35,311 nt of DNA from a virus (taxonomy: Duplodnaviria; Caudoviricetes): positions 1 to 35,311 of IMG/VR virus record IMGVR_UViG_3300021966_000008. One strand, written 5' to 3'. Below, piece after piece: positions 1-35,311 of the stretch. Every line of letters starts with the position of its first letter. Position 1 is the first letter of the stretch. Both the position numbers and the translations under genes were made by a program. Below the pieces are notes generated by a model that ran no database searches, was not told the origin of the DNA, and saw only the letters and a list, made by a program, of their open reading frames with translations.

Positions 1-55
1 GACCTTTTAGACTGGATGTTGCCTTAATACGTTTTGAGTTATTAGGTATTAGATA
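1..55. repeat. 55-bp terminal overlap identical to 35257-35311 (circular assembly overlap)
   Basis: gaccttttagactggatgttgcc...ggtattagata occurs at both ends; an ORF reads in frame across the junction. Confidence 0.95.
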
Positions 56-1546
56 AACAGCATCACCATCAAAGTCAGCACCTGATAACTTGTGTGCAAC
101 TTTAGGATGAATACCAATAGCATCAGTAGCATTACCTAAGATCTTTCTGGCAGGTCCTTTATTATTGACAGTGAGTTCAGGGATTTCAAATGTACCACCA
201 TGAGGATACCGAATCAGTACAACCTTCTCACCATTACGATAGTTCGGAGCATATACTTCATTTGGTTTCATGTCAGGAAATGGAAGTAGAACATGACCTT
301 TACTTCTAGGAAGACCCAATACTTTAAGATGCTGTTCTTTAGATTCAATACCGTCAGCATATGATTCTAATAGATGCTTCTTAACAATAGGGTTAGTCAG
401 CTTAGATATACTGGCATACTCTTTATCAAGTGATTTGTATGTTGCACTTAGACGATCCTTAACTAATGAAGTGGGTTGCTTGGATAGGAATTGTGCTGAC
501 CATTTATTACCAGACCATCCATCCCAGTCACCTTCCTCATTAACAATATTAAGTGCACCCTTCTGACGATTGATAGTGGTACCAAATGGATTATCTTTTG
601 AGTTCTTCTGTGCTTTAAAGACTTTCTCTTTTGGTGTTCCTTTAGGCTTGTTAGTATTAAAGACTAAGTCCTTACCAGCAGGTATATCATCAGAGTACAT
701 TGCCATACCTTTCATGTAATGTGTTCCATCAATACCAATACGAACTTGTGCATATCGAGAGGATCCTAAATCAAGGTCGTCTACATTACGGCGCATTTGG
801 ATAAGACCATCACGATCTACTCCACCTTTGTCACCATAACGAATAGCCACTCGATCCCAATTAACATTCTCAATAGGCTTAAGTTTAGAATATGATAGTC
901 CACCATCTTCAGACCAAGCTTCAGGCAATCTGATTTCATCTCTATGTAACTTTACAACATCAATGTCAGGTTCTTTAGTTAGAACTCGAACTGTTGTCCA
1001 CTTATCCTTGTCGGTTAATCTACGAACATAAATGTCATGCTCATAATAACCTTCTTCTTTAAGCTTCTCAATAGATGACTTAAGCTTAGTTCTAGATATT
1101 CCTAAGTGCTGTTCAGTACCAACACCAACATCCAAGTATGGAGTTTCTTTCATCAAGCTCTTTAAGGTATCAGTCGTTGTATTAATCTGCTTTGTCTTAA
1201 CTTGATCCTTAGTTGAAATATAGTTTCTAATTGTAGATTCTGGGATCCCAGTCTTTCTATGAATCTCTGCATTAGATAAACCATCTTTCTTCATACTGCT
1301 AACGGTTTCACTTAATGCTTTCTTACGATCTTCATTAGCAATTGCAATTCTGCTACGTAATACTGAAGTTGTAATTCCAAGATGCTTTGCGATCTCTTTA
1401 TCAGTTAAACCTTTTGCTCTTAGATCATCAACATCTCTTAAAATATGATTCTCACTTTGATAGCCATCTTTACCACTACCCCAAGGATAGCGACCTGAAC
1501 GACGTTTAACACCATAATGCTTTAACTTATCCTCATTTGCAGTCAT
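1..1546 (-). CDS. 5' part of ~853-aa two-barrel (DPBB) single-subunit RNA polymerase-like protein with N-terminal HTH motifs; continues at 35256->34241
   Basis: Manual translation from ATG 1546: MTANEDKLKHYGVKRRSGRYPWGSG..., HTHs (GLTDKEIAKHLGIT; GLSNAEIHRKTGIPESTIRNY), GTHYMKG, VLIRYPHGG, LSGADFDGDAV (DFDGD at 62-76). Missing from the ORF track because it crosses the contig end. Confidence 0.85.
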   Translation of the reverse strand, partial: MTANEDKLKHYGVKRRSGRYPWGSGKDGYQSENHILRDVDDLRAKGLTDKEIAKHLGITTSVLRSRIAIANEDRKKALSETVSSMKKDGLSNAEIHRKTGIPESTIRNYISTKDQVKTKQINTTTDTLKSLMKETPYLDVGVGTEQHLGISRTKLKSSIEKLKEEGYYEHDIYVRRLTDKDKWTTVRVLTKEPDIDVVKLHRDEIRLPEAWSEDGGLSYSKLKPIENVNWDRVAIRYGDKGGVDRDGLIQMRRNVDDLDLGSSRYAQVRIGIDGTHYMKGMAMYSDDIPAGKDLVFNTNKPKGTPKEKVFKAQKNSKDNPFGTTINRQKGALNIVNEEGDWDGWSGNKWSAQFLSKQPTSLVKDRLSATYKSLDKEYASISKLTNPIVKKHLLESYADGIESKEQHLKVLGLPRSKGHVLLPFPDMKPNEVYAPNYRNGEKVVLIRYPHGGTFEIPELTVNNKGPARKILGNATDAIGIHPKVAHKLSGADFDGDAVYLIPNNSKRIKATSSLKG

Positions 1547-1548
1547 CA

Positions 1549-2112
1549 CTATTCTCCCTCTTCATCCTGTAGTTGTATTAGGATTGCACTAAACCTCACG
1601 ATCTTATCCATAATGTCTGCAATTCTATATGGATCTGGATTATTCTCTTTGATTCGATTAGCTTGGTACAATCTTTGAACGATTTCTATCTTAGTTGGAT
1701 CTACATCATACTCTAGGCAGAACAAGGCTGCATAGATATCTAATTGATTAAACTTCTTAACTGGAATGTCTCCAGTCTTTAAATCATGGATTCTAAGCAC
1801 ACCATCTCGAAAGCTAATAGCATCTGCTGTTCCAAAGGCAACATCACTATAGTATAATACTTTCTCTGATTCCATGTTGAATCCTATTGCATCATTTACG
1901 AATTGATTAACTGACTTCTTCAAACGTCCTAATTTAATTCGATGCTTAATAGCTTGTGATGCAAATGCATGTAATTCAGTTCCTAATTCCTTTCTCTTTG
2001 AGCTCTCATAAATCTGTCGAACTCTATCTTGGTCATAGTTAAGCCAACTGTTCTGACTGGCTCCTAATAATGCGTGCTTTCTAGATAGATCGTAATGCTT
2101 GTTCCATTGCAT
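1549..2112 (-). CDS. PD-(D/E)XK nuclease, Cas4/DUF2800-like
   Basis: GTELHAFA, E...FGTADAI, IHDLKTG, QLDIYA motifs. Confidence 0.75.
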   Translation of the reverse strand: MQWNKHYDLSRKHALLGASQNSWLNYDQDRVRQIYESSKRKELGTELHAFASQAIKHRIKLGRLKKSVNQFVNDAIGFNMESEKVLYYSDVAFGTADAISFRDGVLRIHDLKTGDIPVKKFNQLDIYAALFCLEYDVDPTKIEIVQRLYQANRIKENNPDPYRIADIMDKIVRFSAILIQLQDEEGE

Positions 2113-2374
2113 TTAAAACATCCTCTTCATTCTCTGGATTGATAAACGAAGCATATGTAAACTTGCTCCAGTATTCAATGTAGTAATCTTGATTGGGTTG
2201 ATGGCTAGCCGTGGGCGACCTTTTAACTTCTAGAAAAGCCCAATTGCTTTTATAAAGAACAATCAAATCCGGGACACCTTGAATATAGTTTGGATCGTTC
2301 TTTAACACCATTGCACCATCTAACCTTTTCTTTATCTTCTTTATGAGCCTTGACTGAAATATAGATTCTTTCAC
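2081..2374 (-). CDS. VRR-NUC domain nuclease (Holliday junction resolvase-like)
   Basis: ESIFQ...GVPDLIVL...FLEVKR...PNQ. Confidence 0.85.
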   Translation of the reverse strand: MKESIFQSRLIKKIKKRLDGAMVLKNDPNYIQGVPDLIVLYKSNWAFLEVKRSPTASHQPNQDYYIEYWSKFTYASFINPENEEDVLNAMEQALRSI

Positions 2375-3540
2375 TGCTTTGCTCCTGATCTCTTAGCCCA
2401 ATTAGATTCATTGAACTTCTTCTTAGTTTTTATTGCTTTCATAACTGAGTTATCAATTCCAGAATGACTTAGTAAGTAATAGTATGTCAGATCATGATAC
2501 TTATTATTTGCTCTGTCTATTCTTCCTTCTGATTGTTCCATAATTCGATATGAGTAGTTAGGAGAGTAGAATATCATGGTTGATGTAGTTGTACAATTCC
2601 ATCCTTCAGATCCAGATGTATACTGCACTAAATATGCCCATGACTTTCCTTTTGGAATCTCATCATGTCGATGTCCATTCCATTCTCCAACAGATCTGCC
2701 ATCTTCTTCTAATACTTTTCGAAGTATGTCTAACTCATAATTGTAATTGTAGAATATGACTGCAGTCTTTTCATTCTCTAATACTTTCTTAAGCTTGTTG
2801 ATACGAGATTGATCTGTTGCTACTATCTTGCGTATGACTTGCGTGAACTGTGATGGATTCTCTAAGGGCTTACGACTCCATGGGTCAGCATGGGCTGTTT
2901 GCACAAAGTGATACATCTTTTTATTAAAGTCTGAGTATAAATACTCATGGCTTCGCGCATTCTTGTTATGATAATCCATATTAACTAGAATGTGGTCACG
3001 TAGTTTCATCAACAGATCAGTGTTATGGTATGCAACAATCTTAGGATACTTTTGAAAACGATCATACTCAACATGTCGAGTTGTGAAGGCTGTCTTATTT
3101 TTATAGAACCCATTGGCAACAAAGATGGGCATGAAGTCCATCCAATTGTCAGCGGGTGTAGCAGACAGCAATATCCACTTGTTCTTGTGAGCAATCTTTA
3201 TTAATGTCTTTCCCCAAGTTCCATACTCAGTTGCTCGCTGCTCATCAAATATGAAGAAAGCGTCACTAATTGATTTGTACTTAGTTATGTTGTTCCATGA
3301 ATCAACTACTAAGTTCTTTACTCCTAAGGCTGCTGCATCCTTTTCCCAATCCTTGGTATCTCTTTTCTTTGCTGTTGTTATGACGAATAGCTTTCTCTTC
3401 TTAAAGTTTGTCTTCCAAAAAGAGAGAGCAGTCAATGTTTTTCCACTACCAACTGCTCCACAAAGAATTGATCCAGAATGCAGTTTATTAACTGCCTCTT
3501 TCTGATAATCAAATAGCTTTACCTTACTAGATGATACCAT
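2371..3540 (-). CDS. SF2 (SNF2/DEAD-like) helicase
   Basis: LFDYQ Q-motif, GSGKT Walker A, FIFDEQ, LSATP, SGSEGWN, QSEGRIDR; start uncertain (3540 or 3552). Confidence 0.85.
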   Translation of the reverse strand: MVSSSKVKLFDYQKEAVNKLHSGSILCGAVGSGKTLTALSFWKTNFKKRKLFVITTAKKRDTKDWEKDAAALGVKNLVVDSWNNITKYKSISDAFFIFDEQRATEYGTWGKTLIKIAHKNKWILLSATPADNWMDFMPIFVANGFYKNKTAFTTRHVEYDRFQKYPKIVAYHNTDLLMKLRDHILVNMDYHNKNARSHEYLYSDFNKKMYHFVQTAHADPWSRKPLENPSQFTQVIRKIVATDQSRINKLKKVLENEKTAVIFYNYNYELDILRKVLEEDGRSVGEWNGHRHDEIPKGKSWAYLVQYTSGSEGWNCTTTSTMIFYSPNYSYRIMEQSEGRIDRANNKYHDLTYYYLLSHSGIDNSVMKAIKTKKKFNESNWAKRSGAKQ

Positions 3541-3982
3541 ACTTATCAGCAAATTCGTCAGTGTCCAAAGTTACATACATTGCTTTCAAATATGCTTTCA
3601 CACCATGCTGACCATTGACTTCCCAATGGTATGGACGAACAACAATATCACATTGTTCAATATCTGCCCAGTCCAACATTCCTAAACTATCTTCTTCAAG
3701 TGCAGTATGTTCTCCATTTGAAATGATGTAGATCTTAGGTGGGTATGCATTAAATCCAATTTGAATAGATAGATATGGTCTTTGGCCTTCTTCTACTTTT
3801 TCGGGTTTTGGATAACGAATGTTCCAACCCTCTTTATCTAGTTTCTTTGCTTCATCATCTTCTAAGAACACAACAAAGTTTCTTGAACCAGCCTGGTTGT
3901 ATGCAGTTTCTTTTCCTGCGAAGTTTCTAAAGCCGATTTCTACATTTCCTAAGTTAAGTGTTCCTGCATTATGTTTAACCAT
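3527..3982 (-). CDS. single-stranded DNA-binding protein (phage type)
   Basis: FRNFAG...RNF, PYHWEVNG.GVKAYLKAMYV and acidic tail; strong RBS AGAGGAG before ATG 3982; between replicase and helicase. Confidence 0.65.
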   Translation of the reverse strand: MVKHNAGTLNLGNVEIGFRNFAGKETAYNQAGSRNFVVFLEDDEAKKLDKEGWNIRYPKPEKVEEGQRPYLSIQIGFNAYPPKIYIISNGEHTALEEDSLGMLDWADIEQCDIVVRPYHWEVNGQHGVKAYLKAMYVTLDTDEFADKYGII

Positions 3983-4029
3983 AATATCTCCTCTTCTGTG
4001 TCGTTGTTTTTCTGCTTGTTGTTGTTTTT

Positions 4030-4050
4030 CTACAAAAAAATTGGAGGCAT
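4030..4050 (-). CDS. putative leader minigene MPPIFL*
   Basis: GGAGG-7nt-ATG CCT CCA ATT TTT TTG TAG, overlapping a terminator hairpin. Confidence 0.3.
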   Translation of the reverse strand: MPPIFL

Positions 4051-4062
4051 ATTCCATCCTCC
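4034..4062 (-). terminator. intrinsic terminator directly after promoter copy 1
   Basis: GGAGG-N10-CCTCC then AA and T7. Confidence 0.6.
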
Positions 4063-4092
4063 TCTACTATAGGGTATGTTTTTTCTGCGGAT
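4062..4092 (-). promoter_or_regulatory. conserved promoter-like motif, copy 1
   Basis: ATCCGCAGAAAAAACATACCCTATAGTAGAG, near-identical to three other intergenic copies. Confidence 0.75.
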
Positions 4093-4129: not shown

Positions 4130-7100
4130 CTAAGCTAGGTACCGTTTTGCCTTGTCTCCAAAAACGTCACGAGCTAATCCCACTTTTTGCACATCTGCGA
4201 CTGCATCGGACACCATTTGCTCATAATAATCCATATTAACATCATCCAAGTTAGTATAATCAGTTGATAGTTTCCAGGACACACCTTTAGTCCCAGCTAC
4301 TGCTGCTTCCTTATACTTACGACTTCCATCTTCATTAAGCGCATCAGTATCAATACGCTTTAGTAATTGTCCACCCGTCTTAGAAGCATAGAACTGTCCA
4401 ACCTTTCCAACAAACTCATCATCAATATACATGGTACCTTTCTTAACTGACTTAGTAACAAAGAAGTCAGTTTGATTAACCATCTCACCAGTACACAATG
4501 TTTTAAAGATATAAGGATTTTGGAACTCAGCCCCAATTGCTTCCCATTGTCCATGGTCAGGCCATTCATCATTATCTTCAACTTTACCAACAAGCACAGC
4601 TTTATTAAGTAAGGCAAGTCGATCAAAGATATGTTCAACTTCAAAGTTATAACCATAGTGCTTACCAAAGTCAACAACGAACTTGATTTGCTCATCGGTT
4701 GCCTCCGCCAGTTTAATTGAATCAGTCTTAATATGAATTACTTCAAAGCCTCTGGATTGTGCAGCCTTCTTAAGATCAATCATAAACAAAGCTCCACGCT
4801 TTGCAACAATGTTATCTACATTCAATGGACTTCTAAACTTGTTATCGAATAATGCGGAAGTCATTCCATACACAATATTAATAATAATCTTCATTGCATA
4901 TGCCAGTTGCTTTGCTCTTGCCTTATCACCAAGATATGGTTTCAATGCACCATTAAACATTTTACCAGCTTTATCAAAGTCTCCATGCTTCACATAGATA
5001 CGAGCTTGCTTTAGATCAGCAAATCTTTGAGTGTATGGTCCAAAGTAGTTTAGCTCAATTAAAGATGTTGGATGCATAGATGCCACATCAATTTCTACAA
5101 CATGCTTGTATGTTCCTGGTTTAGAATATACATAGCCACCTTCGCCAACAACTTCACCTTGGTACGTAGACTTCCCACGCCCAGCTTCTTCTTTACCATA
5201 CTTGTTAAACTTGTAACCTGGGAATTGTTTACTGAGATCTGTGTAGACAAATTTATCTTGAGGTCTCTTGTCGTTACCAAATAAGAACTTAGCAGCTTGT
5301 TGCTGTGTTGTTGCATTGATTGGGAGTCCAGATAATTCTGTTAGAATCTCTCTAGCCTTATAATCATCATATGTATAATCAAATAATGCATTTGTTGCAT
5401 CCACATCATTACCACAGTATTCAGCTGCTCGATCCCATTCAGACTTGTCTAATGGTTTGTCCCATGGGAATTCAAACTCGTCATGCTTCATACCCATTTC
5501 AATTTCCCATTTCTTCAATGACTGCTTCTTTGAGTTGTACTCATAAATGTCAGCATACGCTAAATCATAGGCATTAACATTAAAACCACCTTGGGTATTA
5601 TTAATAATGTCTTGTGACCGATGGAACAACTGGATAGGAGTTTCACCCAAATATGCTCCATACAAGATATGATTATCATATCGTCTATTGTTAAACCCAA
5701 CTAAAGGTTTCTTAATCAGTTCTTCAATCTGTTGAGGTGTCGGATTAAACCAGACTGTCTTCTTGTCAGTTCCATACTTCTTAAACTCAACAAGCAATAA
5801 GTTTGGATAAACTTCCAAATCAAAGAAGTATAGATCTTCTTTAGGATATGTCTTACGTGATACATTCTCTTTTTCAATGGAACCGCCATCTTGTTCTTCA
5901 TCTGTATTCTTAAACTTCATCTTAGCTACAAGGTTCAAACAATATGCTTTATGATTAGTAGACTTACTTGCAAATACCATGACATCTTTTGCAAGATCAC
6001 TAACATCATACTGAACCCCTTTACTTTCCGCTTCTTTCAGAATATGATCTATGAAGTCAATGCTTGGTTTAGTTGCTGAGTGATACTCTTTTCTTAAATT
6101 TCTTTCGATTGCTGTTCTCATCTTTTGTTCATTCCAAATCATATCTGTTGAATCATACATAGTCTTTGTCTCCGTTTTCTTTTCTAATTTTAATTCTTCT
6201 TGCGTTGCTTCTGCTATCTTATTTGTGTTCCATAGAACTAGTTTTCTTCTTAACGAACTATTACCTTTAAATACTTTCACTTCAATATTGTGAGATATAA
6301 TTGATGATAATTCAGTGGGGTCACCCTTATAGAGATAATGCAAGTGAACTCCTTTACCTGACTTAGATGTTTCTGCATATGTTGGTGGGTACTTGGACGC
6401 TTCCATTGTATTACGTTCCAAACTCTTGTTACCTTCTGCATCACGTAAGTCGAAGTCAATAACAATTAAATTCAACGGAACCTGCACATAATGCAAGTTG
6501 GTTTCATCAATGTCTGCTAGCGTTGTAGTAACTTGATCCCACTTCTTCTTAGGTGTTCCATTATCATTAGCATATTGAGCTGGAAACTCTTCTCCATACT
6601 CACTAAATGGTTTGACTTGTGGCTTTGATAATTTAAGCCAGCCCATTTGTGTATCCATCTGAACTTCTGGTTCTTTCTTATCTTGATTTGGAAAGAGTAC
6701 ATCATGCTTTAACCCCCAATATAAATTATATTGTGCCACTCCATCCACCATCTTTCTATCTTGATTGTGCTTGTAATATCTTTTAAGTTCATTCTTCAAT
6801 TTTGATTTGGCTCCTTCAGTTGACAGGTCTCTATCATTCAGGAAATCCTTATACAATTCATTTGCTCTTCTTAATGTTACTGAGTCACCTAGACGTTCAT
6901 AGTTCTCGATCATGAAGCTGAACATAATATCTGTAGCTTCTTGCATGTCAGTATTAACGTCATCTCGATATGCAGCTGGTCCTAATTGCTTGAAGACGTC
7001 CATGGCTTTTTGTGCAATTGCTGCTTTCTCTTTAATTATGCCAGCCATCAACTCATTATACCTGTGAGGCTCTACGGTTCTCCCTGAGGGCTCTACGACT

Positions 7101-7978
7101 ATGGCACGTCTATTTATACCAGCATCCACGTTACGGCTCTTATATCGCTGATTAGAGGCTGTTATTAGCAATCCATTAAACGTTACATCATACTCTGCTT
7201 GATACTTCTTATTAACGGTTAATGACTCATGTGACGTAAGCTTCAATAAGTTGGTATCATTCTTGATTATACTAATGTTACTATCTGAATCAATCAGGAC
7301 TGGAATCTCTTGAACATCAGAGGTACCAAAGGTTGAACCATCTGTCAGTTTGTGCAGATCTATGTTAGCTGCATAATCTTCAAATATGGTTTCAAAGATA
7401 TTTATTACAGTTCCCTTACCGGTTCCTTTACCACCATAGATGTATAAGAACTTTTGAATGTTATGCATTGAATTTGTAAGTGTTGCTCCCATTCCCCAAA
7501 GTAACTTAGTCAAGTTTGCATTATCATACAGAGTTCCTAATAACTCATCCAGATTTTCAGTTGATCCCTTCTGTGGTGTATAGGACAATTTGGTTGTGGC
7601 ATAATCCTCTTTAACAATCTGCTCATTACCAAATATGATTCTCGTGTTGAAACTTGGAGCGTCCGTTTCTAATATTTTAAAAGCTTTAACAATTCCATCA
7701 GCAACCTTTGAACTTGCATCCGTTGCTTTCTTTTCAATAATCACCAATTTTGGATTTGACTTAAGCATCTCTTTTTTCTTTGCGTCTACCAGCTTGTCAA
7801 TAGACGACCATAAGTTGTTCATACTTGTATCCCATTTGGTTCCATTCCAGAAAGCGTAAAATGCTCCACCTCTTATTAATAGATCTTTCGTATCTCTCAA
7901 AATTAAGGTTGGCATTAAAACGGCATCAATTTTTCGGTCGTTGGGGTTGGCTATATTTTTGATCTCAATAAAGTCCAT
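4130..7978 (-). CDS. SF3 helicase - AEP primase - family B DNA polymerase fusion
   Basis: GGKGTGKGT Walker A and LIDSD; IDFD and ETSKSGKGVHLHY (AEP); FDLEVY exonuclease, DVASMHP, KIIINIVYG, HIKTDS (PolB); RBS AAAGGAG before ATG 7978. Confidence 0.85.
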   Translation of the reverse strand: MDFIEIKNIANPNDRKIDAVLMPTLILRDTKDLLIRGGAFYAFWNGTKWDTSMNNLWSSIDKLVDAKKKEMLKSNPKLVIIEKKATDASSKVADGIVKAFKILETDAPSFNTRIIFGNEQIVKEDYATTKLSYTPQKGSTENLDELLGTLYDNANLTKLLWGMGATLTNSMHNIQKFLYIYGGKGTGKGTVINIFETIFEDYAANIDLHKLTDGSTFGTSDVQEIPVLIDSDSNISIIKNDTNLLKLTSHESLTVNKKYQAEYDVTFNGLLITASNQRYKSRNVDAGINRRAIVVEPSGRTVEPHRYNELMAGIIKEKAAIAQKAMDVFKQLGPAAYRDDVNTDMQEATDIMFSFMIENYERLGDSVTLRRANELYKDFLNDRDLSTEGAKSKLKNELKRYYKHNQDRKMVDGVAQYNLYWGLKHDVLFPNQDKKEPEVQMDTQMGWLKLSKPQVKPFSEYGEEFPAQYANDNGTPKKKWDQVTTTLADIDETNLHYVQVPLNLIVIDFDLRDAEGNKSLERNTMEASKYPPTYAETSKSGKGVHLHYLYKGDPTELSSIISHNIEVKVFKGNSSLRRKLVLWNTNKIAEATQEELKLEKKTETKTMYDSTDMIWNEQKMRTAIERNLRKEYHSATKPSIDFIDHILKEAESKGVQYDVSDLAKDVMVFASKSTNHKAYCLNLVAKMKFKNTDEEQDGGSIEKENVSRKTYPKEDLYFFDLEVYPNLLLVEFKKYGTDKKTVWFNPTPQQIEELIKKPLVGFNNRRYDNHILYGAYLGETPIQLFHRSQDIINNTQGGFNVNAYDLAYADIYEYNSKKQSLKKWEIEMGMKHDEFEFPWDKPLDKSEWDRAAEYCGNDVDATNALFDYTYDDYKAREILTELSGLPINATTQQQAAKFLFGNDKRPQDKFVYTDLSKQFPGYKFNKYGKEEAGRGKSTYQGEVVGEGGYVYSKPGTYKHVVEIDVASMHPTSLIELNYFGPYTQRFADLKQARIYVKHGDFDKAGKMFNGALKPYLGDKARAKQLAYAMKIIINIVYGMTSALFDNKFRSPLNVDNIVAKRGALFMIDLKKAAQSRGFEVIHIKTDSIKLAEATDEQIKFVVDFGKHYGYNFEVEHIFDRLALLNKAVLVGKVEDNDEWPDHGQWEAIGAEFQNPYIFKTLCTGEMVNQTDFFVTKSVKKGTMYIDDEFVGKVGQFYASKTGGQLLKRIDTDALNEDGSRKYKEAAVAGTKGVSWKLSTDYTNLDDVNMDYYEQMVSDAVADVQKVGLARDVFGDKAKRYLA

Positions 7979-7995
7979 TATAGCTCCTTTCAACC

Positions 7996-8236
7996 ATTTG
8001 TAGTTTTTGTTGTTTTTTTTTCATATACTCTCTATATATATATTTATTTTTTTATAGTAACAATGTCATTTTAGGGGAAAAAAACAACAAGCCATCGGCA
8101 AACCCTTATGGGAGTAGGCTTTAACCCCTGTTAAAATTTGTTGTTTTTTTTCAGGAAAAACCACAAATCCTGAATTCAGGATTAAAATTCTCTAATTTTT
8201 ACCATTTGTTGTTTTTATCCAGGAAAAACCACAAAT
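7996..8236. repeat. candidate replication origin: AT-rich tract, AAAAAC[ACT]ACAAAT iterons in both orientations, 18-bp palindrome
   Basis: 33-bp dyad ATTTGTTGTTTTT-N7-AAAAACCACAAAT at 8136-8168 and 8204-8236; AATCCTGAATTCAGGATT at 8166-8183; non-coding, upstream of the replicase. Confidence 0.6.
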
Positions 8237-8817
8237 TATTTTAGCTGTTTTTTGGCAAATTTATACCATTTTTCCTTCTTTACACGTCCCAAAAAGCTCT
8301 CAAATTCGTATTCAAAACTGTAATATTCGACTGCTCCATTGTCATATTGAGGTAATTTAAACATTGAAACCTCTCCAGTTTTTGAGTTTACGAAGCTTCC
8401 ATTAGCCAAAGATCTTCCCAATTGAGCTAAATGTCGGGCGTCATATTGACCAAATGTTTGAGCTAAACCTAAGTTTTCGAGTATCATATTGGCCCAAAAT
8501 ATCTCATTCAACCCCATCTTTTTAGTCAACTGGTTCACGAAATACATCACAAATTGACCGAAACTTACCTTAGCAAAACGGTCAACATTTAAGTTTGAGT
8601 CATTGGGATTCATTGCATTAATAGCATCTATATACAACTTACCATACAAATCTAAGTCTGCACGTCTCGTTGGTTTTAATCGAATGTAATATAAGTCTTG
8701 AATTTGACGGTGAACTTTCTCCCAATCATTCAGACAGGTCAACTCCTCATCAACCCAATCATTGTATCGTCTACTATCAATGTCTCCTAAATTGTAACGC
8801 CTATCAACAGTCCTCAT
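8236..8817 (-). CDS. hypothetical protein, paralog family member 4
   Basis: Shares P.R..DL, VSF, W..M.LENLGL, SFEYE pattern with the three upstream genes. Confidence 0.8.
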   Translation of the reverse strand: MRTVDRRYNLGDIDSRRYNDWVDEELTCLNDWEKVHRQIQDLYYIRLKPTRRADLDLYGKLYIDAINAMNPNDSNLNVDRFAKVSFGQFVMYFVNQLTKKMGLNEIFWANMILENLGLAQTFGQYDARHLAQLGRSLANGSFVNSKTGEVSMFKLPQYDNGAVEYYSFEYEFESFLGRVKKEKWYKFAKKQLK

Positions 8818-8818
8818 T

Positions 8819-9325
8819 CTAATTTCCCCTTCTAATTGAATATTTATTCTGTGCCTTAGCTGTACGAACTCCTAAATATATAAGGAATTCACTATCAAAT
8901 CCTAAGCCTTTTACTTCACTATACTTCTGATGATCCAATCCAAACATATTGTGACTATCTCTTATCTCTCCCCAACTAGCCTGATCAATTATAATAGCTT
9001 CATTATAAGACGGAACATTAAGGTTATACATAATTAAATGGGCAGCCGATTCATAATCAACAGCACTAATATGATCTTGGATCTTCTCTGAATAGTACAT
9101 TACTACCTCAGAAAAGCTAACAAATCCAGGATCATGCAAGTCATACTTTTTACATAATGATATCCTTTTATCATACATATACTTCCAAACTTCTAAGTCT
9201 TGCTCACGGTGTGGCGTATAACGTACTGTCAAGAGATGCTTAAAAGCCTTTAGGATATCTGGACTATCTAAACCTTCAAGCATTAACTCTTGATAACTAT
9301 TGTATGTCTGAGCCATTGATGTCAC
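8819..9325 (-). CDS. hypothetical protein, paralog family member 3
   Basis: PHREQDL, VSFSEVV, HLIMYNLNV, NMFG, GFDSE; start may be ATG 9316. Confidence 0.8.
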   Translation of the reverse strand: MTSMAQTYNSYQELMLEGLDSPDILKAFKHLLTVRYTPHREQDLEVWKYMYDKRISLCKKYDLHDPGFVSFSEVVMYYSEKIQDHISAVDYESAAHLIMYNLNVPSYNEAIIIDQASWGEIRDSHNMFGLDHQKYSEVKGLGFDSEFLIYLGVRTAKAQNKYSIRRGN

Positions 9326-9854
9326 CTAACTTTCTGATACGATCTTCCAATTCATCGTCATCCAAACCTTTCAAATATAAGTACATTGATGCCTCTGAAT
9401 CAAATGAATCAAAGTCCCTATGCAATTGTCCAGTACCTAATCCATAGATGCCAAAGCCGTCGGGGTCTTCATTAAACATGCCTTCAATTGCCTGATAACA
9501 AATATCCTTAACTTGAGTGGGGTATACATATCCATGACCGATTAATCCTAAATGACCTAAGAATAAATGGCACCAATAGTAAGCTCCAAAGTCATACGCC
9601 TTATCAATCATCTTAGCAGAGACTAATAGGACTTCAGCAAAACTAGCTTTTTCACTAATTGGGCTTCGACCATTATAGAAGTCTTTACGCATACGAATTA
9701 TCTTAAGATATAGTTGTAAATCACCATCTCTGTATGGGTAGAATGGAATCTCAAACAACTCAGTGAGACGTGAATATGTCTGGCTCTCTTTAGGGATTCC
9801 TCGTAACATCCAGTCAACATAGGTTCCCATGGCAGTTGTGTAATCTAACTTCAT
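9297..9854 (-). CDS. hypothetical protein, paralog family member 2
   Basis: PYRDGDL, ASFAEVLL, GAYYWCHLFLGHLGL, GIYG, SFDSE. Confidence 0.8.
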   Translation of the reverse strand: MKLDYTTAMGTYVDWMLRGIPKESQTYSRLTELFEIPFYPYRDGDLQLYLKIIRMRKDFYNGRSPISEKASFAEVLLVSAKMIDKAYDFGAYYWCHLFLGHLGLIGHGYVYPTQVKDICYQAIEGMFNEDPDGFGIYGLGTGQLHRDFDSFDSEASMYLYLKGLDDDELEDRIRKLGDINGSDIQ

Positions 9855-13818: not shown

Positions 13819-13861
13819 AATATACACCTTCCTCTCTACTATAGGGTATGTTTTTCTTGCG
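13816..13861 (-). promoter_or_regulatory. promoter-like motif copy 2 plus RBS and ATG (46-bp exact repeat with 14540-14585)
   Basis: CGCAAGAAAAACATACCCTATAGTAGAGAGGAAGGTGTATATTATG. Confidence 0.8.
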
Positions 13862-14542: not shown

Positions 14543-14585
14543 AATATACACCTTCCTCTCTACTATAGGGTATGTTTTTCTTGCG
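14540..14585 (-). promoter_or_regulatory. promoter-like motif copy 3 plus RBS and ATG
   Basis: Identical to 13816-13861. Confidence 0.8.
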
Positions 14586-14985: not shown

Positions 14986-15022
14986 AATTCTGTTCCTCCT
15001 TAAATTGTAAAAAATATAGAGT

Positions 15023-15097
15023 GGACGACAGGTGGGCTCGAACCACCAACATTTCATTGCTTACAGTGAATGCTCTTCCAACTTGAGCTATGTCTTC
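15023..15097 (-). tRNA. tRNA-like RNA with atypical anticodon arm (loop contains CU-GUA-A; identity uncertain), no CCA at the canonical position
   Basis: GAAGACA TA GCTC AAGTTGGAA GAGC A TTCA CTGTAAGCAA TGAA ATGTT GGTGG TTCGAGC CCACC TGTCGTC C. Confidence 0.7.
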
Positions 15098-15131
15098 CTC
15101 TCTACTATAGGGTATGTTTTTCTTGCGGATT
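15094..15131 (-). promoter_or_regulatory. promoter-like motif copy 4
   Basis: AATCCGCAAGAAAAACATACCCTATAGTAGAGAGGAAG, running into the tRNA-like RNA. Confidence 0.8.
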
Positions 15132-26596: not shown

Positions 26597-28420
26597 TTAG
26601 GCTTCAGATCCAGAAGCTGCAGCCTTAACAGTAACAGCAATAGCAGCATGTGGGATTGTCAAGGCACCAGATAGACGTGTTTCAATTAGGTACTTGTATT
26701 GGTTAAAGTCAATATCAAAGTCATCAAATGATGTAACTTCTCCACCCTTAGTTGAACCAACAGTATAGTCACTTAAATTGACAATAATCATTTGACCTTC
26801 CGCTAAGAATGTTGTTGGTACAATTTCCTTAACCCCAAGACGAGTTGCAATATTAACGTCTGAAGGAATGTCACCAAATAGGAAACGACCATCATTAGCT
26901 TTAAGCAACTTAAGATCTGCCAATGTGTGTGGGTTGATAAATAGTGAAGGAACACCTGAACCTTGGTAGTCAGCCATCGCTTTAATAACTGTTTCAATTA
27001 ATGAAGCAACGTCTGGTGATTCTGATTTGATTGTGTATAGGTCATCATCAGTAAGAATTGGACGAATCTTATCAGCCTTGATCTTGTCTTCAGCTGTAAC
27101 TTCACGACCATCACCAACTAAGATAGCACGAGCAATTTCTTCGTTAAGCATTTCTCTCATTTCACCATTGATCCAGGCAACAGTATCAAAGTCAGTAATG
27201 TCAACAATGTCGTCACGATCTAACTTTTGTTTCTTGTAGACAGTTTGTGGTTCTGTTGTACGTGTCAAGATAGGGAATACTTCTTCAAGCTTTTCTTTAC
27301 CTTTAATATAACCTTTGGCACGAGCAGTAGCAGGTGTTAAGTCGGCTACAAATGTCTTAACTCTTGAGAATGGTGATTTAGAAATTCCATTAACAATCTT
27401 ATCAGCATTACCTTGTCCAGCATGATAAAGAACGGGAGCACCTGTGATGTTTTGTGCTTCAGGGAATAATTTTTCAACATTTGTGATTGAGTGCTTAATA
27501 ATAGAATCCTTTAATGTTCCTAAATCCTTAGCATCAGCTAGAACATCGTTAAGATCAGAATGTGTTAGTGTTTCACCTTGTGAGCCAGATTCAAATACGT
27601 TGTGTGTCATTGTTGTATCTCCTTTTTTTAACTTAGTTTTGTCGACAGTTTTTGTATCATCTTCAGATGTGTCTTGTGACACAGGTTCAGGCTTGTCATC
27701 ACCATCATCTGGTTTGTCAGAGTTGTTTGTAGCTGTGTCTTCAATAGCCATGGCAATTAACGATTCAACAGTCATCTTTTGCTCGTCAGTCATTGCATTG
27801 TAAACGTCTGCAATAGTCTTATCATCGTCACTTGTATCTGTTGATGTAGGTGGTACTTGTTTTTGGTCTGTATCTGTTGTTTCTGGATCATCTTGTTGTT
27901 TCTTCTTTTGGTCATCAGTGTTCATATCTGGTGATTCCTCCTTTTTATTAAGTACATCATTGGCTGAATGAATCAGGTTTCCTGGATAAATGATGCCTTC
28001 TTCATTATCTCCTGTTGCAGAGTGTTTAACAACGGTGTCAATTAATGCACCAGGGTTCGCACCAGCAAGAACAAGACTTACTTCATAAATATTTCCATGA
28101 ATTACGTCATGACCGTTGGACGCCCGTTGAACATGGTTGGCAGCAATGGACATTGCACTAATGTCTCCGTGTTCGATTAAAGAACGAGCGTGGTTAGCTT
28201 CATCGGTATCATTGAAATGCCCATAACCATACACACCCTCATCCTCATTCGAAAGGTTCACATGACCCAATACGTTTGATGGAGTATTCGAGTCGTGCTC
28301 CCAAACCAATGGGACAACCTTATCAGCATTGCTTAGAAAAGCATCATGCTTAATGACTACACCATCAGCACACAGGATATCATTCTTTGTAACCCATCCT
28401 GCGAAATCATAATCTTTCAT
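26597..28420 (-). CDS. prohead protease - scaffold - major capsid protein fusion (HK97 fold)
   Basis: VPLVWEH, MSI, EVSLVLAGANPGA (HK97-type protease); acidic linker; EIARAILVGDG, YLIETRLSG. Confidence 0.88.
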   Translation of the reverse strand: MKDYDFAGWVTKNDILCADGVVIKHDAFLSNADKVVPLVWEHDSNTPSNVLGHVNLSNEDEGVYGYGHFNDTDEANHARSLIEHGDISAMSIAANHVQRASNGHDVIHGNIYEVSLVLAGANPGALIDTVVKHSATGDNEEGIIYPGNLIHSANDVLNKKEESPDMNTDDQKKKQQDDPETTDTDQKQVPPTSTDTSDDDKTIADVYNAMTDEQKMTVESLIAMAIEDTATNNSDKPDDGDDKPEPVSQDTSEDDTKTVDKTKLKKGDTTMTHNVFESGSQGETLTHSDLNDVLADAKDLGTLKDSIIKHSITNVEKLFPEAQNITGAPVLYHAGQGNADKIVNGISKSPFSRVKTFVADLTPATARAKGYIKGKEKLEEVFPILTRTTEPQTVYKKQKLDRDDIVDITDFDTVAWINGEMREMLNEEIARAILVGDGREVTAEDKIKADKIRPILTDDDLYTIKSESPDVASLIETVIKAMADYQGSGVPSLFINPHTLADLKLLKANDGRFLFGDIPSDVNIATRLGVKEIVPTTFLAEGQMIIVNLSDYTVGSTKGGEVTSFDDFDIDFNQYKYLIETRLSGALTIPHAAIAVTVKAAASGSEA

Positions 28421-31450: not shown

Positions 31451-31903
31451 TTAGCTATTTTGTTTATGCTTCTTATAGGCAGTTGTTCCTGCAGCAACCA
31501 ATGCACTTGCAACTAATCCAGTCAATTCTCGATTTCCATTTTGTGTTGGCACTTTCATTCGTCCAACTTGTTGAATGTACTGTCGTCCTTTTGATCGTCT
31601 AGCTGATTGTGCTTGTGCTGTTTGAACCTGTCGTTGGAACTCATTTTCTAGTCTTAATCTTGATACAGCTGTTGATATTTCTTGATTCGACATTTCGCCT
31701 CGACGGTCATACATCTTAGACCATCCCTTAGCTCGTTTTCTACTTGCCTTGGCGTATGCCTTATCTTCTTTTCGTTGTTGACGTGCGTTAGGCTCTCCTG
31801 TTGACTGAACCCTTTGTCTAACACCCCAACGCATTCCTTTTATTCCATGATGTTGAATGTCTGCTACTAGCTTATCAACATACACACTGTCTACATCTAC
31901 CAT
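31451..31903 (-). CDS. basic protein with N-terminal HHGIKGMRWG motif (putative internal virion protein)
   Basis: DIQHHGIKGMRWGVR resembles the KLKHYGVKRRSG start of the RNAP-like protein. Confidence 0.7.
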   Translation of the reverse strand: MVDVDSVYVDKLVADIQHHGIKGMRWGVRQRVQSTGEPNARQQRKEDKAYAKASRKRAKGWSKMYDRRGEMSNQEISTAVSRLRLENEFQRQVQTAQAQSARRSKGRQYIQQVGRMKVPTQNGNRELTGLVASALVAAGTTAYKKHKQNS

Positions 31904-33285: not shown

Positions 33286-33693
33286 CTATTTTGTATTGTC
33301 AGGATTTCCATCTGTATCTTCATCTTCTAAGCTTTGCAAATACTTCTCTACTTTTTTTGTGACAAAACTATTACCGCCAAGCTTCCTATACTTTTTATAG
33401 AAGTACGATACTTCACTTGCTGACAAGCGACGAGATTCAATCCCTTCTAGTATCTGAAGACGAACAATCTCTTTAGTTGTATCACGGTAACGTTCCTCGT
33501 TTAACTCATGTTCCTGGTTTAATTGACTTTTCATTTCATCAATCATTATTTTATGGTTGTCATCAACACGCTTATCAATTCTATTGACCATGTGATACAA
33601 CGTCACCATAATTGATGACACTATGGCAATTATTTCAGGAGTAAAAATGTGACCAAGGGTATAATCTAGCCACTTAACAAACATCATACGCAT
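33286..33693 (-). CDS. membrane protein, holin-associated
   Basis: N-terminal TM, coiled coil, YKKYRKLGGNS; RBS AAAGGAGG; start 33693 or 33687. Confidence 0.65.
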   Translation of the reverse strand: MRMMFVKWLDYTLGHIFTPEIIAIVSSIMVTLYHMVNRIDKRVDDNHKIMIDEMKSQLNQEHELNEERYRDTTKEIVRLQILEGIESRRLSASEVSYFYKKYRKLGGNSFVTKKVEKYLQSLEDEDTDGNPDNTK

Positions 33694-33702
33694 CACCCTC
33701 CT

Positions 33703-33876
33703 TTCATGCCCTTAATAGAAATTCCTACACGACTTTAACATTAGTTGTGTAAGGGGATCAAACACACTCATACTAATTATGTGTATTCTTGAAGGGATTA
33801 CCGATAGTTTAGTATGAGTTAGGCCGTAGTTAAAGCCAGACATGGGTTGTGTAGGAACCTCTATGAAAGGCATGAA
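33703..33876 (-). ncRNA. putative 174-nt rod-like structured RNA or 5' leader
   Basis: ~30-bp closing stem with G-U pairs on the minus strand, nested CTTTAAC/GTTAAAG and ACTCATACTAA/TTAGTATGAGT helices. Confidence 0.6.
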
Positions 33877-33907
33877 GCGAACAGTAATGCGAACACATGT
33901 TCCCAAA

Positions 33908-33984
33908 TGACCCCCGGAGAAAATAGGGATAGCTAGGACGATCATGGGCGGGCGCGAATTTTTTGCGCACCTCCCCTTGGGTCT
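33908..33984. other. putative cos / packaging region
   Basis: GC-rich island (minus: GGGGAGGTGCGC-A6-TTCGCGCCCGCCC...TTTTCTCCGGGGG) in non-coding DNA upstream of the TerS-HNH-TerL module. Confidence 0.4.
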
Positions 33985-34006: not shown

Positions 34007-34231
34007 TTATTTTGTTTCGTCGAGTTTGTAAATTCCTAAAACATCATTCTTTAAAATTTCTTGAATTGCTGTATCAATCAATTCTTCTGCGTCATCATCA
34101 TCAGCATCGACCGGAACATTGGCAACACGAGCAAGGTACTCGGCTGTGAAGTAGCCATGGTCTTGATCCCATTGCTGCCACTTCTCATAGTCCTTCGATG
34201 GTTGATACGGATTGTCTATTGTTGTTAGCAT
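34007..34231 (-). CDS. small acidic protein downstream of the RNAP-like gene
   Basis: MLTTIDNPYQP...W..WD...GYFTAEYLARVA; RBS AGGAG. Confidence 0.75.
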   Translation of the reverse strand: MLTTIDNPYQPSKDYEKWQQWDQDHGYFTAEYLARVANVPVDADDDDAEELIDTAIQEILKNDVLGIYKLDETK

Positions 34232-34240
34232 GTTGTTCTC

Positions 34241-35311
34241 CTATCCTTTAACTAATCTACTCAACGTTGACTGAGAGACACCAAGCGACTGTGCTACTTC
34301 TGCCTGAGTGTAGCCTCTACTCAATAGGGACTTAGCACGAGATAGCTTAGCTGAACTCATAGTAGTTCTAGCATGAGGTGTAGCTAACTCTTGTACCTTT
34401 GTCATGTCAGCGTTGTTCAATACTTTCTCTAGCATGTTATTACTTATGGCTCCTGCTTGAATAGCTTCCCATTCTTTAGGTGTGATAGTAACAACAGACT
34501 TAGATGCTTTAGCCTTTGCTCTTCCTGTAGCAAGTGCCTGGGACTTAAGCTTCTTTATTTGATCTGGTGACATATCTTCTGTTCTATTTTTATAGTAAAT
34601 GTCGGATGCTAGAATTTGAGCACGACGTTCACGAGGTGCATTAGATATGGATATGTTTACTTTGGTCTCTAAGGATTTAACCTCTTTAGAATATAACTTA
34701 GAGGCTTCCTTATTTCTAACGACTGGATGAATATGATTAGCCTGGTTTCTGGCAGATGATTCTAATTTCTTAAGACTATTAACATATGAAGCATATGCAT
34801 TCTCAACTTCTGTACCTGAAGATAATGTACGAGCATCCTTTGTCTTAAGCATTAATGATTCAGTCTTGCCTCGCTTAATCTTTGTTGTTACTTTGCCAGT
34901 CTTCTTATCAACAACCTTAACTTCTTTAGAAGGAAGTTGATACTGCTTCTTGGATCTTGAGATCAAAGTTGATGCACCAACATGTGACTTTCCTTTTGAA
35001 TCTGTCCAACTCTGGTATTTCTTTTGTAATGCGGCAATACCATTATCTTTTGCTGACTGCTTCCAATCAAGTTGATGCTTCTCAGAATCAATGACAACCA
35101 TTGAATGTCTAACAGCACGAGTTAGTTCAGCAGTAGATGCACCTTTGATTGTCATGTCAGTAATAAGGTTCGATACAACACCCATCTGAGTTTGCTTCTG
35201 TCGTGGACTGATTGTCTTCTTACCAACAGAATAGGAGTTTGGATCAAAGTTCTCAAGACCTTTTAGACTGGATGTTGCCTTAATACGTTTTGAGTTATTA
35301 GGTATTAGATA
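34241..35311 (-). CDS. 3' part of the RNA polymerase-like protein, with C-terminal HTH
   Basis: In frame with 1546->1 across the overlap; MGVVSNLITDM, HSMVVIDSEKH, GYTQAEVAQSLGVSQSTLSRL. Confidence 0.85.
   Translation of the reverse strand, partial: YLIPNNSKRIKATSSLKGLENFDPNSYSVGKKTISPRQKQTQMGVVSNLITDMTIKGASTAELTRAVRHSMVVIDSEKHQLDWKQSAKDNGIAALQKKYQSWTDSKGKSHVGASTLISRSKKQYQLPSKEVKVVDKKTGKVTTKIKRGKTESLMLKTKDARTLSSGTEVENAYASYVNSLKKLESSARNQANHIHPVVRNKEASKLYSKEVKSLETKVNISISNAPRERRAQILASDIYYKNRTEDMSPDQIKKLKSQALATGRAKAKASKSVVTITPKEWEAIQAGAISNNMLEKVLNNADMTKVQELATPHARTTMSSAKLSRAKSLLSRGYTQAEVAQSLGVSQSTLSRLVKG

What the first reader, a model, noticed from the sequence alone, without database searches (positions are those of the whole stretch)
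1..1546. Hidden ~853-aa two-barrel RNA polymerase with multiple HTH motifs, split by the contig end
Seen: joining 1546->1 to 35256->34241 gives one 2562-nt ORF with MKG, RYP and GADFDGD, two clear N-terminal HTHs (possibly a third) and one C-terminal HTH. Established: DxDGD is the catalytic loop of double-psi beta-barrel polymerases, including single-chain YonO of SPbeta and cellular RdRPs. Inference: a compact single-chain DNA-dependent RNAP whose fused HTHs could replace a sigma factor. From memory similar genes occur in some actinobacterial siphoviruses, so the family may not be new, but I know of no characterisation.
Basis: partly seen in the sequence, partly recalled or inferred. Interest (0 to 1): 0.88.

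Follow-up and report, generated by a model that had tools for sequence, protein, structure and literature searches.

The report
Phage single-chain two-barrel RNA polymerase
An intact 853-residue phage gene, split only by where the circular assembly was opened, encodes a predicted single-chain RNA polymerase of the same fold as cellular ones; its family was already predicted in print and appears untested, and this phage carries four copies of a phage-specific DNA signal that is likely its promoter.

Summary
Removing a 55-nt terminal repeat gives one 853-aa frame, identical to a database protein and bridged by independent contigs. The model matches QDE-1, RDR2 and Thermus phage RNA polymerases across both barrels; all eight invariant catalytic residues are kept in 149 of 150 relatives; there are three N-terminal DNA-binding folds (the third winged) and one C-terminal. 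It is not new: it is a 42%-identical member of the Lactococcus phage 1706 ORF75 family (PHROG 4291), called YonO-like in 2010 and described with its HTHs in 2021. I found no bench study. This scan reported the family several times on other DNA. Added here: a CGC-N7-ACA-N5-TATAGT motif heads the non-virion genes and the polymerase's own operon, is nearly absent from five host chromosomes, and loses the sigma-A-critical A in one large clade, which favours reading by the phage enzyme. A 74-aa acidic gene follows the polymerase in 95 of 95 relatives, and a motif-like element abuts cos. Promoter use, timing and virion packaging are inferred.

The parts
1..1546 (-). RNA polymerase gene, first part (residues 1-515: N-terminal tag, two HTHs, winged helix, both barrels, DFDGD)
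   Evidence: phrog_4291, E 1.6e-202
34241..35256 (-). RNA polymerase gene, second part (residues 516-853: predicted bridge/trigger helices, helical region, C-terminal HTH, stop)
   Evidence: (phrog_4291, E 4.5e-116)
35257..35311 (.). 55-nt terminal repeat, copy of 1-55; marks a circular assembly, not a genome end
1472..1525 (-). N-terminal LxHYG..SGRYPWGSG peptide (residues 8-25), disordered in the model, most conserved stretch outside the active site; half-shared with the head-module DUF7211 protein
1214..1447 (-). HTH1 and HTH2 (residues about 34-111)
932..1213 (-). third DNA-binding fold, extended winged helix (residues about 112-205)
512..871 (-). first barrel (DPBB-B equivalent) with D246, R269, K279
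44..304 (-). second barrel (DPBB-A equivalent, residues about 415-501) with R446, P448 and D491-D493-D495 (DFDGD at 62-76)
34244..34354 (-). C-terminal HTH (residues about 817-853)
34007..34231 (-). 74-aa acidic protein (phrog_4303), follows the polymerase gene in 95 of 95 relatives examined; candidate cofactor
33941..33976 (-). cos-proximal G-tract/C-tract element containing a CGCR-N6 core like the promoter motif; candidate late promoter or terminase site
33932..33940 (-). predicted 9-nt cos overhang; contigs of relatives and of one run break here
   Evidence: (run X8 pieces end at L001 8862 and restart at 8873)
15104..15127 (-). promoter-like motif copy 1, first element after the tail module
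14562..14585 (-). promoter-like motif copy 2
13838..13861 (-). promoter-like motif copy 3
4066..4089 (-). promoter-like motif copy 4, heads the operon annealing protein-helicase-endonuclease-exonuclease-RNA polymerase-small acidic gene
1549..4057 (-). genes upstream in the same operon: single-strand annealing protein, helicase, endonuclease, exonuclease
31451..31903 (-). head-module protein with DUF7211 tag (HHGIKGMRWG), the only other frame in the window with this kind of tag

Best explanation
This is an intact 853-aa gene of a cos-type tailed phage for a predicted single-chain two-barrel RNA polymerase of the phage 1706 ORF75 family, which likely copies DNA into RNA and likely finds its own promoters with its fused DNA-binding domains. 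Shown: the frame, the predicted two-barrel core (residues about 226-690) with all eight catalytic residues, four HTH-type modules, and a fixed-spacing motif CGC-R-N6-ACA-N5-YNTNAT-RR in front of the non-virion genes and of the polymerase's own operon. Inferred: the three aspartates of DFDGD bind the catalytic Mg; the HTHs read the CGC and ACA boxes; the downstream TATAGT-like box is melted and RNA starts a few bases later, just ahead of the ribosome site; since its own operon carries the motif, the enzyme would amplify its own expression. How the loop is started is open: in phages that keep a TATAAT-like box the host sigma-A enzyme may give the first transcripts, or a few tagged copies may be injected from the head. 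A degenerate copy of the motif next to cos may serve the virion genes, possibly with the 74-aa acidic protein as cofactor. Odds: two-barrel nucleotide polymerase 0.97; DNA-dependent 0.85; reads this motif 0.6.
For: Fold: AlphaFold2 model pLDDT 86.7; the 25 Foldseek matches at E<=0.001 that are listed are all QDE-1, RDR2, P74 gp62 or P23-45 gp64; VIA Z 15.1 QDE-1 (364 aligned, rmsd 4.7, model 226-688 on chain 683-1186), 13.9 RDR2, 13.8 P74 gp62, against 10.2 for the best non-polymerase barrel. Catalytic set intact in 149 of 150 clusters at 50% identity. Core gene: phage records by genus are the same for this protein and the terminase (Arthrobacter 95/95, Gordonia 55/55, Streptomyces 54/54, Lactococcus 13/13). 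Closest tested phage relatives are DNA-dependent: YonO (PMC5467207, passages), P23-45 gp64 and gp96, the latter using a repeated AT-rich motif before pre-early genes (PMC10770324, passages). Motif: 4 copies here, 0 in 100 shuffles, all on the coding strand, none in the 18.6-kb virion region; within 3 kb upstream of the polymerase in 45 of 75 relatives against 1 of 75 on the other strand and 4 of 37 in the downstream region; present in phages of Actinomycetota and Bacillota with the same spacing. In five host genomes (23.7 Mb) 25 of 26 pattern matches lie within about 30 kb upstream of a prophage polymerase gene on its strand. The A at the -11-like position, which sigma-70-type factors need (established knowledge), is missing in 22 of 54 nearest sites and in all 13 sites of FP_oengus, which has no sigma-70 match of 10/12 or better on the coding strand in 50 kb. 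No excess of sigma-70 sites in the window (72 vs 68.6 and 48 vs 53.1 expected).
Against: No activity, start-site or binding data exist here: no RNA run holds this phage. The best structural match is QDE-1, an RNAi polymerase, and PHROG names the family RNA-dependent. 32 of 54 nearest sites keep a sigma-A-like A, often an exact TATAAT, and loss of it is mostly one clade (19 rows, plus 3 single losses), so host reading of the motif in lytic members is not excluded; Henson et al. read it as a sigma-70 -10 box (PMC9671010, passages). 30 of 75 relatives show no strict site within 3 kb. The pattern was drawn from these same sequences, so only the strand, position and host-genome controls are independent. 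HTH structural matches are to common folds (Z 6-8), with no specific sigma region 2 or 4 assignment. YonO transcribes late genes, whereas this motif sits before early/middle genes.
Confidence: 0.6

Rival explanations
1. Late polymerase like YonO: the repeated motif is read by host sigma-A RNA polymerase (alone or with a phage activator), the phage enzyme is made last in the early operon and transcribes only the virion and lysis genes from a promoter at or just after cos.
For: Gene sits last before cos and upstream of the virion operon; YonO precedent; TATAAT-like box kept in 32 of 54 sites; a CGCR core lies 25 nt before cos in 23 of 61 relatives and CGCR-N6-AC in 19 of 61 (shuffles mean 1.3, max 6); no enrichment of sigma-70 sites after the gene (8 of 43 coding strand vs 7 of 43 other strand).
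Against: No -35 box at sigma-70 spacing; motif nearly absent from host chromosomes; A-less boxes in 22 of 54 and in FP_oengus. The cos element is also an inverted repeat that could serve terminase.
Confidence: 0.25
2. Virion-packaged polymerase: the LxHYG tag loads a few copies into the head, the prohead protease trims it after His, and the injected enzyme starts all early transcription from the motif without host polymerase. This is a stronger form of the best explanation.
For: Tag present in 147 of 150 relatives, H10 144/150, SGR 150/150, disordered in the model; the only other such tag in the window is on a head-module DUF7211 protein; hydrophobic-x-His sites recur in the linker of the protease-capsid fusion (131, 149, 271, 285, 308); its own operon is under the motif; precedent in P23-45 gp96.
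Against: No virion proteomics seen; the RefSeq record of phage 1706 labels orf62 and orf71 'structural protein' but not orf75 (basis of labels not seen). Prophage members must start without an injected enzyme. The His sites were not tested against chance.
Confidence: 0.35
3. RNA-dependent RNA polymerase, as PHROG and RefSeq name it, amplifying or antisense-copying RNA.
For: Best fold match QDE-1 and RDR2; label; QxR..KG and SGxDxDGD signatures are of RdRP type.
Against: dsDNA phage core gene with four dsDNA-binding-type modules; the tested phage relatives with the same RdRP-like signature are DNA-dependent; the label derives from likeness only.
Confidence: 0.07
4. Non-transcription role at the genome end or in replication (primer synthesis, or DNA binding near cos), with the motif read by some other phage protein.
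For: Gene lies in the replication operon next to cos.
Against: The phage already encodes a primase-polymerase; the full catalytic and bridge/trigger region is conserved; no other invariant DNA-binding protein was identified, though none was searched for systematically.
Confidence: 0.06

Closest known systems
Lactococcus phage 1706 ORF75 (YP_001828723.1) = class III YonO-like proteins of Ruprich-Robert and Thuriaux 2010 (PMC2919709) = PHROG 4291 = 'HTH domain protein / putative RNA polymerase' of Koert et al. (bioRxiv 10.1101/842583)
   Same: 42% identity over the whole length (417/988); same motifs, same HTHs at both ends, same place (second-last gene before cos, followed by the small gene).
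   Different: Shorter (853 vs 1029 aa) in a small 35.3-kb genome; no difference of kind. The family is known from computation only in the papers I could read.
YonO of Bacillus prophage SPbeta (PMC5467207)
   Same: Single chain of about 100 kDa, RdRP-like two-barrel signature, phage-encoded.
   Different: A different class in the 2010 alignment; YonO is shown to be DNA-dependent and to transcribe late genes, its promoter unknown. I could not compare sequences or folds directly; YonO did not appear in my structure searches.
Thermus phage P23-45 gp64 / P74-26 gp62 (non-virion) and gp96 (virion) RNA polymerases (PMC10770324; PDB 8f72, 8f5m, 8h2m)
   Same: Core fold: Z 13.8 over 344 residues and Z 10.0 over 256; phage-specific repeated promoter motifs.
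   Different: 13-16% identity; those phages use two polymerases, gp96 is fused to the tape measure; the matches cover only residues 225-673, not the HTH modules.
QDE-1 / RDR2 eukaryotic RNAi polymerases
   Same: Best fold match, Z 15.1 and 13.9, both barrels plus following helices.
   Different: 12-15% identity; cellular RNA silencing enzymes; the HTH modules lie outside the aligned range.
crAss-like phage phi14:2 gp66 virion RNA polymerase (PDB 6vr4)
   Same: Weak fold match (Foldseek E 1.1e-3).
   Different: 2166 modelled residues against 853; far larger.

Membership tests
two-barrel (double-psi beta-barrel) nucleotide polymerases | two DPBB domains in one active centre | tested here: met
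   predicted model aligns to QDE-1 683-1186 over model 226-688, Z 15.1; prediction, not a solved structure
two-barrel nucleotide polymerases | DxDGD metal-binding loop | tested here: met
   D491/D493/D495 in 150 of 150
two-barrel nucleotide polymerases | eight invariant residues of Ruprich-Robert and Thuriaux (4 Asp, RxP, two basic) | tested here: met
   D246, R269, K279, R446, P448, D491, D493, D495 all intact in 149 of 150; mapping from the paper's supplement, except RxP, which I place at RYP 446-448 rather than where their 1706 row has it
two-barrel nucleotide polymerases | template-directed NTP polymerisation | not testable with these tools
   needs purified protein
phage 1706 ORF75 / PHROG 4291 (class III YonO-like) | full-length sequence homology | tested here: met
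   phrog_4291 E 1.6e-202 and 4.5e-116; 42% to ORF75
phage 1706 ORF75 / PHROG 4291 | HTH domains at N- and C-terminal ends | tested here: met
   feature as stated by Koert et al.
phage 1706 ORF75 / PHROG 4291 | lineage context: protease-capsid fusion, primase-polymerase, endonuclease-exonuclease-polymerase-small gene at the right genome end | tested here: met
YonO proper (class I) | sequence homology to SPbeta YonO beyond the catalytic motifs | not tested
   no YonO sequence was fetched; the 2010 paper places the two in different classes
YonO proper (class I) | DNA-dependent transcription of late genes | not testable with these tools
   no RNA run holds the phage
eukaryotic RdRP (Pfam PF05183) | Pfam RdRP profile match | tested here: inconclusive
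   not among the listed hits for P0001, P0002 or P0003 (only the best 25 shown for two of them); precomputed hit in 3 of 120 relatives
eukaryotic RdRP | RNA template use | not testable with these tools
   needs assay
sigma-70 factors (claim that HTHs replace sigma) | region 2 melting domain and region 4 HTH | tested here: inconclusive
   Sigma70_r4-type Pfam hits are among many generic HTH hits; structural matches Z 6-6.5 to sigma HTHs are no better than to other regulators; residues 690-815 were not folded alone
virion-packaged phage RNA polymerases | presence in purified virions | not testable with these tools
   no proteomics seen

The most novel reading that the evidence does not exclude
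A self-sufficient 96-kDa transcription machine: one chain with built-in promoter readers is tagged into the phage head, injected, starts all early genes from the CGC-N7-ACA-N5-TATAGT motif, amplifies itself, and is then switched by the invariant 74-aa acidic protein to a late promoter whose upstream boxes lie at the right genome end and whose start site lies in cos, so that virion genes are read only from joined genome ends. That would make a large lineage of gut, dairy and soil phages independent of host RNA polymerase.
Probability: 0.12. Interest if true: 0.85.

Novelty: new member of a known kind. Interest (0 to 1): 0.4.

Why it matters
The gene itself is an ordinary member of a large family (792 clusters at 50% identity with E<=1e-30; 250 phage records) that is mostly mislabelled as an HTH protein or an RNA-dependent polymerase. 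The open question is biochemical: whether a two-barrel polymerase can recognise promoters without any sigma-like partner. This genome is a compact test case: 853 aa, four near-identical candidate promoters, and one candidate cofactor. If confirmed it would be a small, orthogonal transcription system and a model for minimal ancestors of cellular RNA polymerase.

Tried and rejected
Assembly artefact at the junction: rejected. Sequence searches of solved structures with the N-terminal half and with a 150-row profile found only HTH matches; NCBIfam gave only sub-threshold HTH hits. Expression: no RNA holder listed, so no test. Complex of polymerase with the 74-aa protein: the queue was full, no job ran; no verdict. 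The small protein has no usable Atlas, PDB or NCBIfam hit. Rfam: no match. Ca. Heliusvirales: I suspected membership from memory; the paper's main text has no occurrence of 'RNA polymerase' (PMC11283538) and I did not test its markers, so I make no claim. Specificity switch between polymerase residues and the -10-like box: not pursued, as TATAAT-, TATTAT- and TTTTAT-type boxes coexist in single genomes. One of the 22 'A-less' rows (L125) is probably a chance match nearer the gene; its upstream site is also A-less. The last hit in 1706 and CHPC971 lies inside a gene and is probably chance. My first strict pattern missed CHPC971 and FP_oengus until relaxed. HTH occupancy of 150 of 150 is biased, as rows were the best full-length hits. 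Literature: 10 searches found no bench study of this family; the library lacks most subscription papers, and the original 1706, P738 and ReqiPepy6/Poco6 papers were not seen (not held). bioRxiv supplements (Koert Fig. S1) and file 2 of PMC2919709 were not seen. PMC8525569, PMC5513430, PMC13313380, PMC13432834 and PMC5883640 (passages) said nothing on this protein.

Full report
Observation. The window is a circular assembly: its first and last 55 nt are identical, and IMG/VR classes the record as having direct terminal repeats. Dropping one copy and reading 1546->1 then 35256->34241 gives 853 codons and a stop; keeping the repeat breaks the frame. A database protein of 853 aa seen on 4 contigs is identical to this frame. 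Locus L001 holds the gene unbroken (99.98% over 14,559 nt), and contigs from 4 of 4 other runs cross the junction, one covering the whole gene. The split is only where the circle was opened.

Setting. All genes lie on one strand: holin, HNH, terminase, portal, protease-capsid fusion, tail, GH25 endolysin, then small unknown genes, a 1287-aa primase-polymerase, annealing protein, helicase, endonuclease, exonuclease, the polymerase and a 74-aa gene. The real genome end is about 300 nt after the polymerase: many related contigs stop there, one laid run breaks at exactly this place, and the cultured relative RosaAsantewaa ends with the equivalent 9-mer. I predict cos at 33932-33940. Near-identical DNA occurs in digester, dairy, manure and food metagenomes; the endolysin is closest to Lactobacillus phage enzymes at about 50%, a weak hint of a Bacillota host.

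What the protein is. Both halves match phrog_4291. An AlphaFold2 model from 80 sequences (pLDDT 86.7, pTM 0.75) matches QDE-1, RDR2 and the Thermus phage polymerases, then crAss gp66 and the large subunits of cellular enzymes. The QDE-1 alignment (Z 15.1, 364 residues, rmsd 4.7) spans residues 226-688 and both barrels. The eight residues that Ruprich-Robert and Thuriaux list as invariant map to D246, R269, K279, R446, P448, D491, D493, D495 and are all intact in 149 of 150 diverse relatives. Outside the core are two simple HTHs (34-111), an extended winged helix (112-205) and a C-terminal HTH (817-853); their structural matches are to common folds, so no sigma region can be assigned.

What is known. 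The 2010 review (PMC2919709; I read parts 1-4 of 6 of the text and part 3 of supplement 1) names the phage 1706 protein as one of five YonO-like classes and aligns its motifs. Koert et al. (bioRxiv 10.1101/842583; passages) report the RdRP-like HHpred hit, DxDGD and HTHs at both ends, and call it a possible signature gene. Our protein is 42% identical to 1706 ORF75 over its length. 250 phage records carry it, with the same genus counts as the terminase; 792 clusters at 50% identity match at E<=1e-30; 310 stretches in one-per-species prokaryote genomes encode a relative. Ten literature searches found no bench study (see Tried and rejected), within a library that lacks most subscription papers. 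Earlier notes of this scan reached the same family call on other DNA and also noted the motif and the tag; these are not independent support.

Candidate promoter. A 24-nt motif occurs 4 times (0 in 100 shuffles), all on the coding strand: three right after the tail module and one at the head of the polymerase's own operon. Ordinary sigma-70 sites are not in excess. The same spacing, CGC-R-N6-ACA-N5-YNTNAT-RR, recurs in Streptomyces, Microbacterium, Arthrobacter, Lactococcus (CAC variant) and Faecalibacterium phages, on the coding strand and outside the virion genes. Of 208 loci reduced to 105 clusters at 80% identity, 75 had 3 kb upstream; 45 carry a strict site there, against 1 on the other strand and 4 of 37 in downstream DNA. 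In five host genomes, 25 of 26 matches are upstream of a prophage polymerase gene. Henson et al. and the Mossy paper (passages) noted the repeat in cluster DJ phages and read it as a sigma-70 -10 box or a translation start, without linking it to this gene. Against host reading: there is no -35 box at the right distance, and the -11-like A is lost in 22 of 54 sites and in all 13 FP_oengus sites. For host reading: 32 of 54 keep it, and the loss is mostly one clade rich in prophages of Lachnospiraceae and Oscillospiraceae (4 changes on the tree). One reading that fits both is a dual-use promoter that lytic members let the host enzyme start and temperate members have made host-silent; this is inference.

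Further leads. The 74-aa acidic gene follows the polymerase in 95 of 95 clusters with enough downstream DNA and is found in 239 phage records; it has no known fold and the complex prediction could not be run. A G-tract/C-tract element before cos holds CGCR at -25 in 23 of 61 relatives and CGCR-N6-AC in 19 of 61 (shuffle mean 1.3, max 6); it may be a late promoter or a terminase site. The N-terminal LxHYG..SGRYPWGSG peptide is disordered yet more conserved than the core average (0.81 vs 0.66) and resembles the DUF7211 tag of a head-module protein, which suggests head loading; the 1706 record does not label ORF75 structural, and prophages must start without an injected enzyme.

Verdict. Real, correctly read, and a new member of a family predicted in print since 2010. 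Most likely a DNA-dependent RNA polymerase that reads the repeated motif (0.6); the late-only and virion-packaged variants remain open. Interest 0.4: not surprising to a specialist, but the motif and the small partner make the untested question directly testable.

Noticed in passing
window 33690-33935 (-): The leader between cos and the first late gene folds into a long hairpin (-86.3 kcal/mol, z -6.3) that buries the ribosome site of ORF 33696; similar anti-ribosome-site stretches are visible by eye in several relatives. Possible translational control of lysis genes.
   Followed up: partly
window 15021-15098 (-): tRNA-like element with an undefined anticodon directly after motif copy 1; no Rfam match at gathering score.
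   Followed up: partly
window 7990-8236 (-): A-rich gap before the primase-polymerase gene with a 38-nt direct repeat (8131-8168, 8199-8236) and repeated AAAACAACAAA units; candidate replication origin.
   Followed up: no
window 4130-7993 (-): 1287-aa fusion of primase-helicase-like and DNA polymerase domains (phrog_4210), typical of this lineage.
   Followed up: no
window 26597-28420 (-): Protease-capsid fusion with recurring hydrophobic-x-His sites in the linker (residues 131, 149, 271, 285, 308); candidate maturation cuts, not tested against chance.
   Followed up: partly
whole window: At 35,256 bp the circle is smaller than most cultured relatives (mostly 43-62 kb); CheckV estimates 59% complete although all modules are present, no integrase was seen, and close relatives lie on contigs of 35-42 kb.
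   Followed up: partly
window 8236-9854 (-): Three adjacent 168-193-aa ORFs without PHROG match between the unknown early genes and the primase-polymerase.
   Followed up: no
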